Shown: positions 53,178 to 61,195 of the stretch, one piece after another
How the letters are laid out: each line of letters begins with the position of its first letter
Numbering within the stretch: position 1 is the first letter of the stretch
NCBI GenBank assembly: GCA_016784355.1
Contig: JADHUV010000009.1
Location: 8,746-72,745 of the forward strand
Length of the DNA: 64,000 nt
From: Nitrospira sp.
GTDB taxonomy: Bacteria; Nitrospirota; Thermodesulfovibrionia; UBA6902
Reading direction: 5' to 3'
Translations under genes and position numbers: made by a program
The notes under the pieces: model-generated
What the model was told of the DNA's origin: nothing
Databases searched by the model: none
Seen by the model: only the letters and a program-made list of their open reading frames with translations

Positions 53178-55367
53178 GTGTATAATCGAATGGTTCGTGT
53201 ACTTTCTTGTATGGCAGTTGTGCTGATACTGGCCGGTTATTTTTCATTCGCTTATGCAGAGTATGTGCCGGGTGAGGTTCTGGTTAAGTACAGGGACGGC
53301 AGCATGATATCTGAGAGTACGCTTTCCGAGGATGCCGGAATACAGCAGAAAAAGGATTTCCGTGCGATCCGGCTGCATCACATGGCGCTTCCGGAAAATA
53401 TGTCAGTGCAAGAGGCAATAGCAATTTATCAGCAGGATCCCAATGTTGAGTATGCAGAGCCCAATTATATTGTTGAAATAAATACTATTCCGGATGATAC
53501 TGATTTTACAGGTTTGTGGGGCATGCACAATGAAGGACAGACTGGGGGAGCAGTAGATGCGGATATTGATGCCCCTGAGGCCTGGGAACTTACTGTCGGA
53601 TCCGAAGATGTCATTGTGGCGGTAGTTGATACAGGGGTGGTTTATACACATCCGGACCTTAGTGCAAATATATGGACGAATTCCGGAGAAACCAGCTGCG
53701 TCGATGGTATTGACAATGATGGTAACGGCTATATTGATGATTGTAATGGCTGGGATTTTGTCGGCAGTGATAATGATCCTACAGACTATAATGGACATGG
53801 CACGCATGTAGCCGGAACTATTGCTGCGGTAGGAAATAATGCAGACGGCGTTAGCGGTGTGATGTGGAGAGCAAAGATTATGCCTCTTAGATTCCTGGGT
53901 GTAAATGGCACAGGCACTACCGCAGATGCTGTATCAGCGATACTTTATGCCTCTGCCAATGGCGCTCATGTTATAAACAATAGCTGGGGCGGCGGTGGAT
54001 ATAGTCAGGCATTGAAGGATGCTATAGATGCATCAGATACGGTGGTGGTATGCGCTGCCGGCAATAGTGGCAGTAATGTTGAGAGCACTCCATTTTATCC
54101 CGCCAGTTACACGAGTTCCAATATTATCTCTGTTGCCGCTACAGACCACAATGATCAATTGGCTGCTTTTTCCAATTATGGCATTACGTCCGTAGATATA
54201 GCCGCCCCCGGCGCTGGTATATACAGCACTGTACCGGTAATTGGCTATGGGGCACCGGTTACTGTTTACAGTCAACAGAGTTTTGAGGGTGCCTCCGGTG
54301 AACTTCCGCTGCTGGGCTGGAACCGGGGCGGAGCAAATTCCTCCTGGTCAGTTACGAGCGGTACCGGTACAGATGGAAGTAACAGCCTTGAGGACAGTCC
54401 CGGGGCTGACTATAGTAACAGCACTGGCTCCTGGGCAGGTTATATGACCCCGATAACCTCGGTGAAGGACAATATATACACTCTAACATTCAGCTGGAAG
54501 GGTGAGCTGGAAAATTATTTTGATTATCTGGATATTAACTATTCTCTGGACGGAAGCTCCTGGGACTGGGTTGATTACCGTACGGGCAGCACCAGTGGAG
54601 ATTTTGAGTCAGACTCCTCTGAGGATCTTACAAGCATTGCGGAGTCTTATGATGAATTTTATTTTGGCTTCGGTATTACTGCTGATAGCTCCGTAACCAG
54701 CGAGGGTGTGAGCATTGATGATATTGAATTAACTAGAACTCCTCTGCGGATTAGCAGTTACGGCTATTCAAGTTATAACGGGACATCCATGGCCGCTCCT
54801 CATGTGGCCGGGGTTGCAGGGCTTGTCAAGGCGCTGCATCCGGAATTTTCCAATCTGCAGATTCGGAGTGCGATAATAAACAGCGTAGATGTAAAAGCGG
54901 ATCTGGTGGGAAGTATCGCAACCGGAGGCAGACTGAATGCCTATGGGGCCCTTGTTGAAACGAATATCGATGTTATCAGTGATGGCAGCGGTGACAGTGA
55001 AACTGTTGTAGTGCCGGGAAGCAACTCAGGTATAGTTGAGGCAGCAGCCGGCGGTGGCGGCGGCGGTGGCGGCTGTTTTATCGCAACTGCGGCATACGGA
55101 AGTTTTATGCACCCGTATGTCAGGGATCTCAGAGAGTTCAGGGATGATTATTTATTGAGCAATTATCCGGGCAGGCTTTTTGTATATATGTATTACAAGT
55201 ACTCACCGCCTGTAGCGAATATTATAAAAGACAGCGAAGGCCTGCGGTTTGCATCAAGGATATTGCTGGCTCCAGTTGTTGCAGCAGTTACGATGCCTTA
55301 CCATGTACTGACATTAATGCTTGCAGGGGGTTTCATCTATATGCTCCGCCGCCGCAGAGTCCGGTAG
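53178..55367 (+). CDS. Secreted subtilisin-like (S8) serine protease with an inserted beta-rich module and a Gly8-CFIATAAYGS C-terminal anchor domain
   Basis: SD GGGAGG plus a GTG start. Signal peptide, then an I9-like propeptide. Catalytic D (VAVVDTGV), H (HGTHVAG) and S (GTSMAAPHVAG). An insert of ~190 aa lies before the Ser motif. The C-terminus is GGGGGGGGCFIATAAYGS ... hydrophobic helix ... RRRRVR. Confidence 0.9.
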   Translation: MYNRMVRVLSCMAVVLILAGYFSFAYAEYVPGEVLVKYRDGSMISESTLSEDAGIQQKKDFRAIRLHHMALPENMSVQEAIAIYQQDPNVEYAEPNYIVEINTIPDDTDFTGLWGMHNEGQTGGAVDADIDAPEAWELTVGSEDVIVAVVDTGVVYTHPDLSANIWTNSGETSCVDGIDNDGNGYIDDCNGWDFVGSDNDPTDYNGHGTHVAGTIAAVGNNADGVSGVMWRAKIMPLRFLGVNGTGTTADAVSAILYASANGAHVINNSWGGGGYSQALKDAIDASDTVVVCAAGNSGSNVESTPFYPASYTSSNIISVAATDHNDQLAAFSNYGITSVDIAAPGAGIYSTVPVIGYGAPVTVYSQQSFEGASGELPLLGWNRGGANSSWSVTSGTGTDGSNSLEDSPGADYSNSTGSWAGYMTPITSVKDNIYTLTFSWKGELENYFDYLDINYSLDGSSWDWVDYRTGSTSGDFESDSSEDLTSIAESYDEFYFGFGITADSSVTSEGVSIDDIELTRTPLRISSYGYSSYNGTSMAAPHVAGVAGLVKALHPEFSNLQIRSAIINSVDVKADLVGSIATGGRLNAYGALVETNIDVISDGSGDSETVVVPGSNSGIVEAAAGGGGGGGGCFIATAAYGSFMHPYVRDLREFRDDYLLSNYPGRLFVYMYYKYSPPVANIIKDSEGLRFASRILLAPVVAAVTMPYHVLTLMLAGGFIYMLRRRRVR

Positions 55368-57468: not shown

Positions 57469-58041
57469 TTAATGCTCGTGTTTAAGCGGGAAATGTTCAT
57501 GAACATTCTTTAGCCTTTCTTTGAAATCAAACTTGTACTTTGGATCAAGTTTTTCATTGAAAGGACTTTTGCCGCCGTGACATCGCAGGCAGATTGCTTC
57601 ACTTTCAGAAGGAATCTGCAGCCCTGCAGCCTTTACATCAGCCAGTTTATGCTTTTTGTCTTTCTTCATTATCTTGGAATAATCGCTGCCTGCACCATGA
57701 CATGATTCACACTGAACTCCCGCGAGTTTTGGAGTTGCCTCGATGCTGGTAAAGCCGGTGGCCTCGCCGTAGCCGGTTGTATGGCATTCAAGGCACTCAG
57801 GATCTGCGGTGTAATCCTTTGCAGGATCGAGCCCTGCCTTTGTCTTTTCCTCTGCTTTTATTCCGGGTTTCAGGTTTTCAAAGCTGTTAGCCATGGAAGT
57901 TTCATTCCATGACTTAAACTGCTTTATGTGACATGCCTTGCATTTTTTTGCTCCGATATAATCGGCATTAGCGTCTACGGCTGAAAAGTACAGCGATAAA
58001 ATGAATACGGATACTGCAATTGATAATAATTTTTTCACCAA
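57469..58041 (-). CDS. Periplasmic tetrahaem c-type cytochrome
   Basis: Signal peptide and four CxxCH motifs (CKACH, CLECH, CESCH, CLRCH). Confidence 0.8.
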   Translation of the reverse strand: MVKKLLSIAVSVFILSLYFSAVDANADYIGAKKCKACHIKQFKSWNETSMANSFENLKPGIKAEEKTKAGLDPAKDYTADPECLECHTTGYGEATGFTSIEATPKLAGVQCESCHGAGSDYSKIMKKDKKHKLADVKAAGLQIPSESEAICLRCHGGKSPFNEKLDPKYKFDFKERLKNVHEHFPLKHEH

Positions 58042-58129
58042 TTCACCTCTTTAAGATAGATTTTTTTCTTAATTTACAATAGCAATTAATTGTGAATTAT
58101 CTGTGAATAGCATATGGACAAGAAAAAAA

Positions 58130-58198
58130 TGGCGGCGGAGGCAGGATTCGAACCCACAGCCTTGCGGCCAATGGTGTTCAAGGCCCGGCACTTCCTCC
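58130..58198 (-). pseudogene. Decayed/truncated tRNA-Ser-like sequence (69 nt)
   Basis: The 3' portion ...GGCC-GCAA-GGCT GTGGGTTCGAATCCTGCCTCCGCCGCCA matches the variable arm, T-arm, acceptor 3' strand and CCA of the tRNA-Ser at 59736-59821. The D-arm and the 5' anticodon-stem strand are missing, and the acceptor pairs at only 5/7. Confidence 0.5.
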
Positions 58199-58279
58199 AT
58201 GATCACCTAACCCGCTGATTCCTTTATGTTTTAAAAATTTGGCTTTTCTCTTGCATCATCTGGTGTCGGCTTAAATTAG

Positions 58280-58301
58280 AAAAAAATGTCTGCAGACATT
58301 T
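58280..58301 (-). terminator. Rho-independent terminator after the channel gene
   Basis: Perfect 18-bp palindrome AAATGTCTGCAGACATTT, with a T-run following on the minus strand. Confidence 0.55.
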
Positions 58302-58418
58302 TATATGTTAAAAAGATGTGCTTTAGCCAATATATACAACGGCTATTATATTATCATGAAAGATGAAATATTTACAATCGATTGCGCCCTTCCCGCTGCC
58401 TGCTGCAGTGTACTGTCC

Positions 58419-59315
58419 TTAAGAGGGAGTGCGTAAATCTTTTATCTCGGCAGCGAACTCAGCATTGACCGCTGTCCCTGCGTCAACGGCCTCTTCGTGC
58501 CGGGCCGGCTTGATGTGTTCGCCCGGGCTGCCGCAGTAAATACAGCAATTATTCTCAAAAATTTTTTTCCTCAGTTCATCAGAAAAGCCGGACGCAAGGA
58601 CCCCGGCGGGCAGCGCAAACATCGCTATCCCGAGCATCGCTATAAATGCACCGACAATTTTTCCGGTAATGGTAATCGGATAGATATCGCCGTAGCCGAC
58701 AGTGGTCAGGGTGGCGACTCCCCACCACATTGCCGCCGGAATACTCGAAAAAGCCTCCGGCTGGGACTCGTGTTCAAGAAAGTAAATGAGGCTTGATGAG
58801 ATAATCAGAAGCATAAACAGGATAAAGGCGTTTACTGCCAGCCCCTCTTTTTTTGCTCTAAGTACATTGTTAAGCGTTTTAAAAGACTCAGAATAACGGC
58901 CGAGTTTAAACAGACGGAAAAGTCTGAACAGCCTTACAGCCCTGAGTATCCTTCCGTCAAGGTCCGCAAACAGCAGGAAGAAGGGAACTATAGCCAGCAG
59001 GTCTATTATGGCCATGGGTGTAACCATAAACCTCAGTCTTCCTATAACAGGCCTGCTGAACTTCTCGTGCACTGTGCAGGACCATACTCTCAGGATATAT
59101 TCTATGATGAAGACGGCTATGGATATAGTGTCAAGAATTATAAACAGGTGATAGTATTCAGCGTGAATGCTCTGAACCGTCTCGAGTATTACGCAGACGA
59201 CATTTATAGCGATAAGAGTGACGATGAATATGTCAAATATCCGGCTCGGAAAATCATTGTCCGAGGACTTATCCAGTATTTCGTTTACTCTCTTTTTGAT
59301 TTTGTTCTTATTCAT
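58419..59315 (-). CDS. Voltage-gated-type potassium channel (6-TM Kv-like)
   Basis: K+ selectivity filter TLTTVGYGD, and an S4-like arginine ladder RILRAVRLFRLFRLFKLGR. Confidence 0.85.
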   Translation of the reverse strand: MNKNKIKKRVNEILDKSSDNDFPSRIFDIFIVTLIAINVVCVILETVQSIHAEYYHLFIILDTISIAVFIIEYILRVWSCTVHEKFSRPVIGRLRFMVTPMAIIDLLAIVPFFLLFADLDGRILRAVRLFRLFRLFKLGRYSESFKTLNNVLRAKKEGLAVNAFILFMLLIISSSLIYFLEHESQPEAFSSIPAAMWWGVATLTTVGYGDIYPITITGKIVGAFIAMLGIAMFALPAGVLASGFSDELRKKIFENNCCIYCGSPGEHIKPARHEEAVDAGTAVNAEFAAEIKDLRTPS

Positions 59316-59453
59316 ATTTTCATATATACAGACACGGTCAATGGCCTGTATAAATATATCGAGTCAGTTTGCGATTAACTTTAATGCTCCCTGCGTTCAT
59401 CCCCATGCAAGATTGCTCAAATATCACTGGACTTCCCCCGCTTTTGTAGACAC

Positions 59454-59628
59454 TCACCCGGTTGCATTTTCAGCTAATTCGTAGTCCTGCGGGCTGATGT
59501 ACCCGAGATAGCTGTGACGCCTCTTTGAATTAAAGAACATTTCGATATAATCGAAGATGTCACTCTTTGCTTCATCACGGGTATCGTAGATCCTCCAGGC
59601 GGGATGATCTAATTTTGCATGATCTCAG
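59454..59628 (-). mobile_element. C-terminal remnant of an IS3-family transposase (OrfB)
   Basis: My own translation gives DHPAWRIYDTRDEAKSDIFDYIEMFFNSKRRHSYLGYISPQDYELAENATG*, which matches the conserved IS3/IS150 integrase C-terminus (..F.YIE.FYN..R.HS.LGY.SP..). There is no upstream catalytic region, and a stop codon lies directly 5' of the fragment. Confidence 0.65.
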
Positions 59629-59735
59629 GACATAAAGCCCGATCTGCCTTTGACCGCTGCACTATAGTTAATGAAGAAAATTTTAAGAATCCATCGGGAA
59701 AGGTTTTTAAGCGCCTTGAAGGCAGAAGAAAAAAA

Positions 59736-59821
59736 TGGCGGAGGAGGTAGGATTCGAACCCACGGATCTTTCGATCAACGGTTTTCAAGACCGCCGCCAT
59801 CGACCACTCGGCCACTCCTCC
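59736..59821 (-). tRNA. tRNA-Ser (anticodon UGA), CCA encoded
   Basis: GGAGGAG acceptor pairs with CTCCTCC. D-arm GCCGAGTGGTC.... Anticodon stem GCGGT/ACCGT with loop CTTGAAA. Long variable arm. T-arm GTGGG-TTCGAAT-CCTAC. 86 nt. Confidence 0.9.
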
Positions 59822-59872
59822 GTAATTTTTTCTTATTTTACAGTTACATGATAAAACTGTGTATCTATATAA

Positions 59873-61195
<1,323 letters not shown>

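What the first reader, a model, noticed from the sequence alone, without database searches (positions are those of the whole stretch)
58130..59821. 1.6-kb islet (Kv-type channel plus IS3 transposase remnant) bracketed by tRNA-Ser(UGA) and a decayed 69-nt tRNA-Ser copy
Both tRNA-like sequences are on the minus strand in direct orientation. The intact tRNA's 3' end faces the islet, and the partial copy lies at the far end.

The copies share ...GTGGGTTCGAATCCT[A/G]CCTCC[T/G]CCGCCA. The similarity continues ~10 nt past the CCA: on the + strand both read AAGAAAAAAATGGCGG. The partial copy retains a variable arm (GGCC-GCAA-GGCT) and traces of the 5' acceptor (GGAGGAAGTGCCG), but it lacks the D-arm and the 5' anticodon-stem strand.

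Between the two tRNA sequences are a complete voltage-gated-type K+ channel gene with its own terminator and a 58-codon C-terminal fragment of an IS3-family transposase next to the intact tRNA.

The geometry fits either an old tRNA-targeted insertion whose mobility genes have decayed, or a former tandem tRNA-Ser pair split by insertion, with one copy then eroding.
Basis: partly seen in the sequence, partly recalled or inferred. Interest (0 to 1): 0.5.

Follow-up and report, generated by a model that had tools for sequence, protein, structure and literature searches.

The report
Decayed gene islet at tRNA-Ser
A 1.6-kb piece of extra DNA carrying a potassium-channel gene and a dead transposase fragment sits just after a serine tRNA gene in an uncultured Nitrospirota bacterium, bracketed by the tRNA and a broken copy of its 3' part; this is the familiar scar of an old insertion at a tRNA gene, and it is ordinary.

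Summary
An intact tRNA-Ser(UGA) lies at 59736-59821 (-). A non-functional copy of its 3' part lies 1.6 kb downstream in direct orientation, and the two bracket a Kv-type K+ channel gene and an IS3 transposase remnant. The repeat spans 67 nt at 84% identity, with a 36/38 core that runs 10 nt past the CCA.

Six related Thermodesulfovibrionia MAGs (serS 77-80% identical) have serS, tRNA-Ser, cytochrome c554-like and mnmG with nothing in between. None of 14 relatives has a second tRNA fragment. The flank beside the partial copy is native intergenic DNA; the flank beside the intact tRNA is not.

The two copies differ mainly in the variable arm, at positions that co-vary among functional orthologues, and base pairing is kept. 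They therefore look like two different functional alleles rather than a fresh duplicate that decayed.

My best reading (confidence about 0.6) is the attL/attR-like scar of an old integrative element at tRNA-Ser. The integrase was probably lost in the deletion that also truncated a secondary IS3 insertion, leaving the channel gene as surviving cargo. No integrase or integrase remnant is present, so the mechanism is inferred.

This is a known kind of feature and of low interest. In other samples of the same population, a different IS interrupts the channel gene.

The parts
59873..61156 (-). serS (seryl-tRNA synthetase), the native left neighbour
   Evidence: Pfam tRNA-synt_2b 2.7e-48 and Seryl_tRNA_N. 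Used as the anchor for relatives.
59736..59821 (-). Intact tRNA-Ser(UGA). Its 3' end faces the islet.
   Evidence: ARAGORN; Rfam tRNA 57.6 bits. Its 3' half matches the tRNA-Ser(UGA) of relatives.
59726..59792 (-). Left direct repeat (attL-like): tRNA positions 30-86 plus 10 nt downstream (TTTTTTTCTT)
   Evidence: blastn: 67 nt, 83.6% identical, E = 4e-13. 36/38 core at 59726-59763.
59673..59725 (.). Inserted DNA of unknown origin between the repeat and the IS remnant
   Evidence: No similarity to relatives' tRNA-cytochrome spacers. No Pfam hit. Similarity to IS3 copies here is weak and unconvincing.
59419..59672 (-). IS3-family remnant. It comprises the orfB C-terminus (clean codons 59457-59624, in-frame stop 59625-59627, decayed codons to about 59672), the stop codon at 59454-59456, and the right terminal repeat ending ...GTCCA at 59419. 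The 5' part of the IS is deleted.
   Evidence: Pfam rve_2 7.3e-11. Homologues are named IS3 family transposase, 82-84% identical. DNA homology with two independent copies (L090, L091) stops exactly at 59419.
58419..59315 (-). Kv-type six-helix K+ channel gene (298 aa), the surviving cargo
   Evidence: Ion_trans 2.6e-37 and Ion_trans_2 5e-15. Matches solved KCNQ/Kv1/Kv4 channels at 1e-36. S4 RILRAVRLFRLFRLFKLGR and filter TTVGYGD are read from the translation. The best non-self homologue is 61% identical.
58278..58302 (-). Terminator-like hairpin (AAAAUGUCUG/CAGACAUUUU) with a U-run after the channel gene
   Evidence: 20-nt perfect palindrome and fold. Not flagged by the consensus scan.
58120..58185 (-). 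Right direct repeat (attR-like): non-functional copy of tRNA-Ser(UGA) from the anticodon stem/loop to CCA, plus TTTTTTTCTT
   Evidence: Not a tRNA by ARAGORN, Rfam or folding. It is the Thermodesulfovibrionia type of Ser(UGA).
58186..58198 (-). Possible trace of a 5' acceptor strand (GGAGGAAGTGCCG); uncertain
   Evidence: 11/15 match to the tRNA 5' end. Null p is about 0.03 (local alignment) and about 0.003 (positional).
58042..58119 (-). Native spacer, promoter and leader of the cytochrome gene
   Evidence: Aligns with the tRNA-cytochrome spacer of relative L012, score 21 against a null of 11.3 +/- 2.2, p = 0.003.
57469..58041 (-). Multihaem cytochrome c554-like gene, the native right neighbour
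   Evidence: Pfam Cytochrome_C554 1.7e-26. It lies directly after tRNA-Ser in relatives L004, L007, L009, L010, L011 and L012.

Best explanation
The 1.6-kb stretch is the decayed remnant of DNA that entered the chromosome at the 3' part of the tRNA-Ser(UGA) gene, most likely through a tyrosine-integrase element that carried its own copy of the tRNA 3' part.

Such an integration leaves a functional tRNA at one end (59736-59821) and a displaced, functionless 3' fragment at the other (58120-58185), in direct orientation. The fragment here starts at the anticodon stem/loop, which is one of the usual crossover sublocations. An IS3-family element later inserted inside the element. A deletion then removed the IS's 5' part together with whatever lay between it and the tRNA, which is the usual place for the integrase gene. 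What remains is the IS right end, a Kv-type K+ channel gene with its own terminator, and the two diverged att-like repeats. The islet is now immobile.

**Shown:**
- the repeat;
- the non-functionality of the distal copy;
- the empty site in relatives;
- which flank is native;
- the identity and right boundary of the IS remnant;
- the identity of the channel.

**Inferred:**
- the involvement of an integrase;
- the order of events;
- that the deletion removed the integrase.
For: 1. A direct repeat of 67 nt at 83.6% identity (E = 4e-13), with a 36/38 core extending 10 nt past the CCA. It has the configuration required of tRNA-borne islands: an intact tDNA plus a 3' end-fragment downstream in the same orientation (criteria in PMC4383910).
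2. Six relatives with serS 77-80% identical have tRNA-Ser(UGA) followed after 79-442 nt by the cytochrome c554-like gene and then mnmG. They have no channel, IS or tRNA fragment.
3. The flank beside the partial copy aligns to the native spacer of L012 (p = 0.003). The flank beside the intact tRNA matches no relative.
4. Differences between the two copies are concentrated in the variable arm (6 of 13 columns against 4 of 51, Fisher p = 0.003). They fall at stem positions that co-vary among functional orthologues, and pairing is kept (GATC/GATC against GGCC/GGCT). This is expected if a host-borne and an element-borne 3' part were brought together. It is not expected from neutral decay of a fresh duplicate.
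5. Similarity begins at the anticodon stem/loop. Islander catalogues this as the commoner crossover sublocation, 2083 of 3919 islands.
6. The IS3 remnant has an intact right end at 59419 but lacks its 5' part. Its truncated side faces the intact tRNA.
7. The channel's nearest homologues are only 61% identical. Those that carry a name, or whose context I examined, are mostly archaeal; none is named Nitrospirota.
8. In other samples, the same population carries another IS inside the channel gene, so the islet tolerates disruption.
Against: - No integrase gene or recognisable integrase remnant lies in or beside the islet.
- No intact relative of the element was found, and no empty-site allele in the same species. 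Metagenome and viral pattern scans gave 0 hits. No serS between 81% and 100% identity exists in the protein collection, so no close relative is sampled.
- None of the relatives examined has an integrase next to this tRNA.
- In the textbook model the displaced fragment is the host's own. Here it is the intact gene's 3' half that matches relatives best, including the same GATC variable stem as L004. The partial copy also carries changes at positions invariant in orthologues.
- The 10 non-coding nucleotides after the CCA are identical in both copies although the variable arm differs. This fits a crossover at the extreme 3' end better than one in the anticodon loop.
- GC content and tetranucleotide composition of the islet are typical of the window.
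- The repeats are diverged, and the interval is below the 2-kb minimum that Islander uses.
Confidence: 0.6

Rival explanations
1. Acquisition without an integrase. A DNA fragment from a related Thermodesulfovibrionia donor, already carrying a tRNA-Ser(UGA) gene or fragment next to the channel gene, entered by homologous or homology-facilitated illegitimate recombination. The donor locus may itself have been an occupied, already decayed site. The tRNA and its T-run (the 16 identical bases CCGCCATTTTTTTCTT) would have served as the anchor.
For: - The partial copy is the clade-specific type of tRNA-Ser(UGA): 4-bp variable stem with a tetraloop and a CCTRC T-stem.
- The composition of the islet matches the host.
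- The longest perfectly identical blocks are the 15-nt T-loop block and the 16 nt spanning the tRNA 3' end plus 10 nt downstream.
- There is no integrase remnant.
- The intact tRNA is entirely of the native type.
- A possible 5' acceptor trace suggests the copy was once full length.
Against: - No donor-like locus was found. The nearest channel homologues sit in archaeal contigs with no tRNA next to them.
- Sixteen bases is a very short anchor for homologous recombination.
- The geometry is equally the classical att geometry.
- The 5' trace has only p of about 0.03.
Confidence: 0.2
2. A former tandem pair. A lineage-specific tandem duplication produced two tRNA-Ser(UGA) genes. The channel gene and IS then inserted between them, and the second copy lost its D-arm by internal deletion and decayed.
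For: - The copies are in direct orientation, and each is followed by the same TTTTTTTCTT.
- A possible 5' acceptor trace lies upstream of the partial copy.
- More distant relatives (L017, L018) do carry two tRNA-Ser genes in tandem after serS.
Against: - None of 12 closer relatives has a second tRNA or a remnant of one at this site.
- The tandem partner in L017 and L018 is Ser(GCU), which the partial copy does not resemble: alignment score 20, against 27-35 for the Ser(UGA) genes of the 12 closer relatives.
- Variable-arm differences are paired and in excess (p = 0.003). The second copy would therefore have had to stay functional and diverge for a long time before decaying, which requires more events.
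- This model does not explain how the insert arrived exactly between the copies.
Confidence: 0.15
3. Chance resemblance. The 69-nt element is not related to the tRNA.
For: The T-loop motif GGTTCGAATCC is common to many tRNAs and tRNA-like sequences.
Against: - 67 nt at 83.6% identity with E = 4e-13 within the window.
- The similarity covers the anticodon loop, the variable arm architecture, the T-arm, the acceptor 3' strand, the CCA and 10 nt of flank.
- There is no other hit in the 64 kb.
Confidence: 0.01

Closest known systems
Genomic islands and prophages integrated in tRNA genes by tyrosine integrases (the class catalogued by Islander, PMC4383910); attR-type tRNA gene fragments (PMC9897764)
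   Same: - An intact tRNA gene at one end.
- A displaced 3' end-fragment of the same tRNA downstream in direct orientation.
- Inserted DNA between them.
- An empty site in relatives.
- A fragment that starts at the anticodon stem/loop and runs to the tRNA 3' end.
   Different: - No integrase gene.
- The interval is only 1.6 kb, below Islander's 2-kb cut-off.
- The repeats have diverged (84% over 67 nt).
- It is the distal fragment, not the functional gene's 3' half, that departs from the clade's tRNA sequence.
Cis-mobilizable elements (CIMEs): att-flanked remnants of integrative elements that have lost integration and transfer genes (definition in PMC6323972)
   Same: Cargo DNA flanked by attL/attR-like repeats, with no recombinase or transfer genes, apparently derived by deletion.
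   Different: - CIMEs are defined by intact att sites that a related ICE can still use. Here the repeats are imperfect.
- No cognate integrase or ICE is known, so mobilisability is unsupported.
- CIMEs are described mainly in Streptococcus, not in Nitrospirota.
IS3-family insertion sequences
   Same: - An orfB C-terminus (rve_2).
- 82-84% identity to other IS3-family fragments.
- A terminal repeat ending in CA, whose boundary coincides with that of two independent copies.
   Different: - It is only about 250 nt of the right end, with an in-frame stop.
- orfA, the catalytic core and the left end are gone.
- It cannot account for the 67-nt repeats, because IS3 elements make 3-5 bp target duplications (established knowledge).
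Prokaryotic six-helix voltage-gated K+ channels of the KvAP type
   Same: - An Ion_trans domain.
- An S4 helix with Arg at every third position.
- A TVGYGD selectivity filter.
- E of about 1e-36 to solved Kv/KCNQ structures.
   Different: - It has a roughly 40-residue C-terminal extension, with a CCIYC motif, that the nearest homologues (about 268 aa) lack.
- Function was not tested.

Membership tests
tRNA-integrated genomic island (Islander criteria, PMC4383910) | Intact tRNA or tmRNA gene at one end | tested here: met
   tRNA-Ser(UGA) at 59736-59821 (-).
tRNA-integrated genomic island (Islander criteria, PMC4383910) | Cognate tDNA fragment in the same orientation: an end fragment, with the 3' fragment lying downstream of the gene | tested here: met
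   58120-58185 (-) matches tRNA positions 30-86 plus 10 nt, downstream of and in direct orientation with the gene.
tRNA-integrated genomic island (Islander criteria, PMC4383910) | Tyrosine integrase gene within the interval | tested here: not met
   Only the channel ORF and the IS3 fragment give Pfam hits. Stop-free segments of the remaining DNA give none.
tRNA-integrated genomic island (Islander criteria, PMC4383910) | Length of 2-200 kb | tested here: not met
   Repeat spacing is 1606 nt.
tRNA-integrated genomic island (Islander criteria, PMC4383910) | Absent from the same site in related genomes (empty attB) | tested here: met
   L004, L007, L009, L010, L011 and L012 all have tRNA-Ser directly followed by the cytochrome gene. 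No same-species empty allele was found.
Cis-mobilizable element (CIME, PMC6323972) | Lacks integration and transfer genes | tested here: met
Cis-mobilizable element (CIME, PMC6323972) | Intact attL and attR usable by a related element's integrase | tested here: inconclusive
   The repeats are 36/38 identical in the core and 56/67 overall. No cognate integrase is known, so usability cannot be judged.
IS3 family insertion sequence | DDE transposase (OrfB) with an rve-type C-terminus | tested here: met
   rve_2 7.3e-11. Homologues are annotated as IS3 family transposase.
IS3 family insertion sequence | Complete element: orfA, catalytic core, both terminal repeats and a short target duplication | tested here: not met
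   Only the last 56-72 codons and the right end (59419) remain.
Voltage-gated-type (6TM) K+ channel | Ion_trans domain with an S4 Arg repeat and a TVGYG selectivity filter | tested here: met
Voltage-gated-type (6TM) K+ channel | Voltage-dependent K+ conductance | not testable with these tools
   Needs electrophysiology.
Functional tRNA (for the partial copy) | Cloverleaf recognised by tRNA models | tested here: not met
   No ARAGORN call. No Rfam tRNA match at E<=10. The minimum-energy fold is not a cloverleaf, z = -1.3. The D-arm and the 5' strand of the anticodon stem are absent.

The most novel reading that the evidence does not exclude
The islet is not inert. Either it is a minimal att-flanked passenger that a resident or incoming tRNA-Ser-specific integrase can still excise and move, which would make it a CIME-like element in Nitrospirota. 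Or it records the delivery of an archaeal-type Kv channel gene into a bacterial lineage by a tRNA-targeted element, with the tRNA fragment retained because it now serves the neighbouring cytochrome or channel transcripts, for example as a processing or termination signal.
Probability: 0.08. Interest if true: 0.35.

Novelty: new member of a known kind. Interest (0 to 1): 0.14.

Why it matters
It matters little beyond annotation.
- It marks tRNA-Ser(UGA) as an insertion site in an uncultured Thermodesulfovibrionia lineage.
- It shows that this lineage's Kv-type channel gene is accessory. The gene is absent from the site in relatives and is interrupted by an IS in part of the population.
- It gives a worked example of a tRNA fragment that should be annotated as an att-type remnant rather than as a tRNA or pseudogene of unknown origin.
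- The excess of paired differences in the variable arm is a small, reusable argument for telling an att remnant (two alleles brought together) from a decayed duplicate.

Tried and rejected
- **Empty-site allele in the same species.** I scanned metagenome contigs for the predicted junction CCTACCTCCTCCGCCATTTTTTTCTTGTCCATATGC and found 0 hits.
- **Parent of the partial copy.** I scanned for its variable arm plus T-arm and found 0 hits in metagenome contigs and in viral contigs.
Islet GC is 0.439 against 0.448 for the window. Tetranucleotide distance is unremarkable: 65% of same-size windows are at least as far from the window average. Channel GC3 is only slightly high. The test is uninformative.
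- **Integrase or other remnants in the non-coding parts.** Pfam on all stop-free segments of 20 aa or more found nothing credible.
- **Extending the IS remnant towards the tRNA.** Alignment to L090 and L091 gave weak, unconvincing similarity upstream of about 59672.
- **Full-length copies of the IS.** The protein search returned only short fragments. There is no other copy in the window.
- **Context of the nearest channel homologues (P0002, P0040).** They are chromosomal and lie downstream of an archaeal cdh operon. No tRNA or mobile genes are nearby.
- **Integrases beside tRNA-Ser in relatives (L005, L013, L014, L015).** None was found.
- **Closer relatives through serS.** Nothing lies between 81% and 100% identity.
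- **Partial copy as a relic of tRNA-Ser(GCU), as in L017 and L018.** Rejected.
- **17-nt near-repeat 58062-58078 / 59826-59842 as evidence of a larger duplication.** Not significant for AT-rich sequence, and neither copy is conserved in relatives.
- **Rfam K_chan_RES hit inside the channel gene.** It scores 30 bits against a threshold of 51. I read it as protein-coding similarity of the pore region, not an RNA element.
Full report
**What is in the sequence**

ARAGORN finds a single tRNA in the 64-kb window, tRNA-Ser(UGA) at 59736-59821 on the minus strand. Rfam's tRNA model scores it 57.6 bits. About 1.6 kb further along the same strand lies a second tRNA-like stretch.
- The repeat finder reports 58120-58157 and 59726-59763 as a 38-nt direct repeat with 36 identities.
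- blastn of the region against the window extends this to 67 nt at 83.6% identity (58120-58185 versus 59726-59792, E = 4e-13), with no other hit in the window.
- In tRNA terms the similarity runs from position 30 (the last bases of the 5' strand of the anticodon stem), through the anticodon loop (CTTGAA), the variable arm, the T-arm, the acceptor 3' strand and the CCA, and on through 10 further bases (TTTTTTTCTT).
- That decamer occurs three times in the whole window on both strands, all in this locus.

The distal copy is not a tRNA. ARAGORN does not call it, Rfam does not match it even at E<=10, and it folds no better than shuffled sequence and not as a cloverleaf. Such matches occur 11 other times in the window, and a local-alignment null gives p of about 0.03. 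I treat the trace as possible, not established.

**What lies between the copies**
- *Channel gene.* The ORF at 58419-59315 (-) is a six-helix K+ channel.
  - It matches Pfam Ion_trans at 2.6e-37 and solved KCNQ, Kv1 and Kv4 channels at about 1e-36.
  - It has an S4 helix with Arg at every third residue and a TTVGYGD filter (translation).
  - A perfect 20-nt palindrome followed by a U-run (58283-58302) follows it.
- *IS3 remnant.* Next to the intact tRNA, frame translation gives DHAKLDHPAWRIYDTRDEAKSDIFDYIEMFFNSKRRHSYLGYISPQDYELAENATG.
  - This spans 59457-59624 (-), 56 codons, and matches Pfam rve_2 at 7e-11.
  - Its best homologues (82-84% identical) are IS3-family OrfB C-termini.
  - Weaker similarity continues upstream across an in-frame stop to about 59672.
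  - Two independent copies of this IS (L090, L091) align with the window through the stop codon and 34 further bases. All three then diverge after ...GGGGGAA(G/C)TCCA. This fixes the outer end of the right terminal repeat at window 59419.
  - The IS right end is therefore intact. Everything 5' of the last roughly 72 codons has been deleted, and the truncated side faces the intact tRNA.
- *No recombinase.* No integrase, and no recognisable protein remnant, is present in the remaining non-coding parts.

**Comparison with relatives**

The window comes from an uncultured Nitrospirota (Thermodesulfovibrionia-like) MAG. An NCBI contig of GCA_014382155.1 is 99.95% identical. A serS-anchored scan of species-representative genomes returned a dozen relatives with serS 72-80% identical.
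- Twelve of them have tRNA-Ser(UGA) directly after serS.
- In six (L004, L007, L009, L010, L011, L012) the next genes are the cytochrome c554-like gene and then mnmG, as in the window. Only 79-442 nt separate tRNA and cytochrome, and there is no channel and no IS.
- No relative has a second tRNA fragment near the gene.
- The 88 nt between the partial copy and the cytochrome start align with the 79-nt spacer of L012 (score 21 against 11.3 +/- 2.2 for shuffles, p = 0.003). The 88 nt following the intact tRNA match no relative.

The DNA from just after 59726 down to the partial copy is therefore an insertion into an ancestral tRNA-cytochrome spacer.

No closer relative exists in the data. The protein collection holds no serS between 81% and 100% identity. 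Scans for a same-species empty junction found nothing.

**Origin of the second copy**

I aligned the 3' parts of the intact gene, the partial copy and nine orthologues.
- The orthologues are invariant except in the variable arm, whose 4-bp stem changes by paired substitutions (GATC/GATC, GGAC/GTCC, GAGC/GCTC, GACC/GGTC and so on).
- The partial copy differs from the intact gene at 10 of 64 aligned positions. Six of these fall in the 13 variable-arm columns (Fisher p = 0.003).
- Its stem reads GGCC/GGCT, which still pairs: two paired changes and one G-U.
- The other differences hit positions invariant in functional orthologues: anticodon-loop A38, the anticodon-stem 3' strand, the T-stem and acceptor position 70. 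Two of them would break pairs with the present 5' half, so they look like decay.

The simplest reading is that the two copies were already different functional alleles when they came together, and that the distal one has decayed by roughly 10% since. That is what integration of an element carrying its own tRNA 3' part produces. It is not what a fresh tandem duplication followed by neutral decay produces.

The partial copy is nevertheless of the clade's own type: short variable stem with a tetraloop, and a CCTRC T-stem. It resembles Ser(UGA) of these relatives far more than Ser(GCU) or Ser(UGA) of other phyla. Its source was therefore this lineage or a related one. This agrees with the islet's unremarkable GC content and tetranucleotide composition.

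**Mechanism**

The geometry is the signature of tyrosine-integrase islands in tRNA genes (PMC4383910; PMC9897764). It consists of an intact tDNA, a 3' end-fragment downstream in direct orientation, and similarity that starts at the anticodon stem/loop. I therefore favour, at about 0.6, the following history:
1. An integrative element entered at tRNA-Ser.
2. An IS3 element inserted within it.
3. A deletion running from inside the IS towards the tRNA removed the IS 5' part and the adjacent element genes. The integrase plausibly lay there, since in such islands it usually sits next to the tRNA.
4. The channel gene survived as cargo.

The integrase step is inferred, because nothing of an integrase remains. 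Three observations fit the textbook model poorly:
- The intact gene's 3' half, not the displaced fragment, is the one that matches relatives best. It even shares the GATC stem of L004.
- The ten non-coding bases after the CCA are identical in both copies although the variable arms differ. This would suit a crossover at the extreme 3' end (CCGCCATTTTTTTCTT).
- None of the sampled relatives has an integrase at this tRNA.

These points keep alive an integrase-free alternative: recombination of a fragment from a related donor, anchored on the tRNA and its T-run (about 0.2). No relative has a second Ser(UGA). The tandem partner seen in more distant relatives (L017, L018) is Ser(GCU), which the fragment does not resemble. 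And the model needs a long period of functional divergence before decay.

**The cargo**

The channel's only 100% match is itself. The next best hits are 61% identical or less, and those that carry a name are mostly Theionarchaea or Methanofastidiosia. Two of the best hits sit downstream of an archaeal cdh operon, near archaeal translation and tRNA-modification genes, with no mobile context.

Native genes of this lineage are themselves only 45-80% identical to their orthologues. The identity level alone therefore does not prove transfer. The phyletic pattern of the best hits suggests it.

The gene is dispensable in at least part of the population.
- Contigs from several samples break inside it at 59185-59190.
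- They continue into the two related ends of another IS (GTCGATTTCCAGC... and GTCGAGTTCCAGC...) with a 6-bp target duplication.
- Other contigs cross the site uninterrupted, like the window.

**Verdict**

The feature fails two formal criteria of an active island (integrase and length), and its att-like repeats are imperfect. It is therefore best described as a decayed islet, conceptually close to a CIME (PMC6323972), but with no evidence that it can still move. It is a new example of a well-known kind and of low general interest.

Noticed in passing
window 59185-59190 (inside the channel gene); L002 9973-10021; L084 9670-9720: In other samples of the same population the channel gene is interrupted by a different IS. 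Contigs from both sides leave the window sequence at 59185/59190 and continue with related inverted ends (GTCGAGTTCCAGCACAAATCCCCAGG... and GTCGATTTCCAGCTTAATTCCCCACC...), implying a 6-bp target duplication AGTATT. L087 and L001 cross the site uninterrupted. No copy of these ends is in the window. The IS family was not identified.
   Followed up: partly
window 58278-58296 (-): The tail of the channel terminator (GACATTTTTTTCT) repeats the tRNA 3' end plus flank (GCCATTTTTTTCT). CATTTTTTTCT occurs three times in the 64 kb, all on the minus strand within this 1.7-kb locus. It could be a coincidence of terminator tails or a third, very decayed att-like site.
   Followed up: partly
window 58062-58078 and 59826-59842: A 17-nt near-repeat (16/17). 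On the minus strand it reads TGTAAA(T/A)TAAGAAAAAA, once upstream of the intact tRNA and once in the cytochrome leader. Neither copy is conserved in relatives, and for AT-rich sequence the match is not clearly beyond chance.
   Followed up: partly
L007 2379-2820; L009 6449-6667; L005 11736-12059 and the same position in L006: The spacer after tRNA-Ser(UGA) varies among relatives. L007 holds a small ORF that looks like a GIY-YIG nuclease (read by eye, not tested) behind a palindrome. L009 holds a long inverted repeat that looks like a miniature element. L005 and L006 have a small c3/c7-like cytochrome gene in place of the c554-like one.
   Followed up: no
window 58587-58700 (-): An Rfam hit to K_chan_RES, the RNA-editing signal of animal Kv channels. 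It scores 30 bits, well below the 51-bit threshold. It lies in the pore-coding part of the gene, so I read it as protein-coding similarity rather than an RNA element.
   Followed up: no
window 53178-55367 (+): A subtilisin-like protease (Peptidase_S8) ends in a Gly run followed by CFIATAAYGS and a hydrophobic, basic tail. This looks like a C-terminal sorting signal. It was not examined.
   Followed up: no
window 59873-61156 (serS) and 58419-59315 (channel): The lineage is sparsely sampled. No serS between 81% and 100% identity exists among 5.8 billion clustered proteins. Assemblies of this population repeatedly break at the tRNA or inside the channel gene.
   Followed up: yes
window 58419-58540 (channel C-terminus): The channel has a C-terminal extension of about 40 residues (ENNCCIYCGSPGEHIKPARHEE...) that its closest homologues (about 268 aa, covering about 87% of the query) lack.
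   Followed up: no
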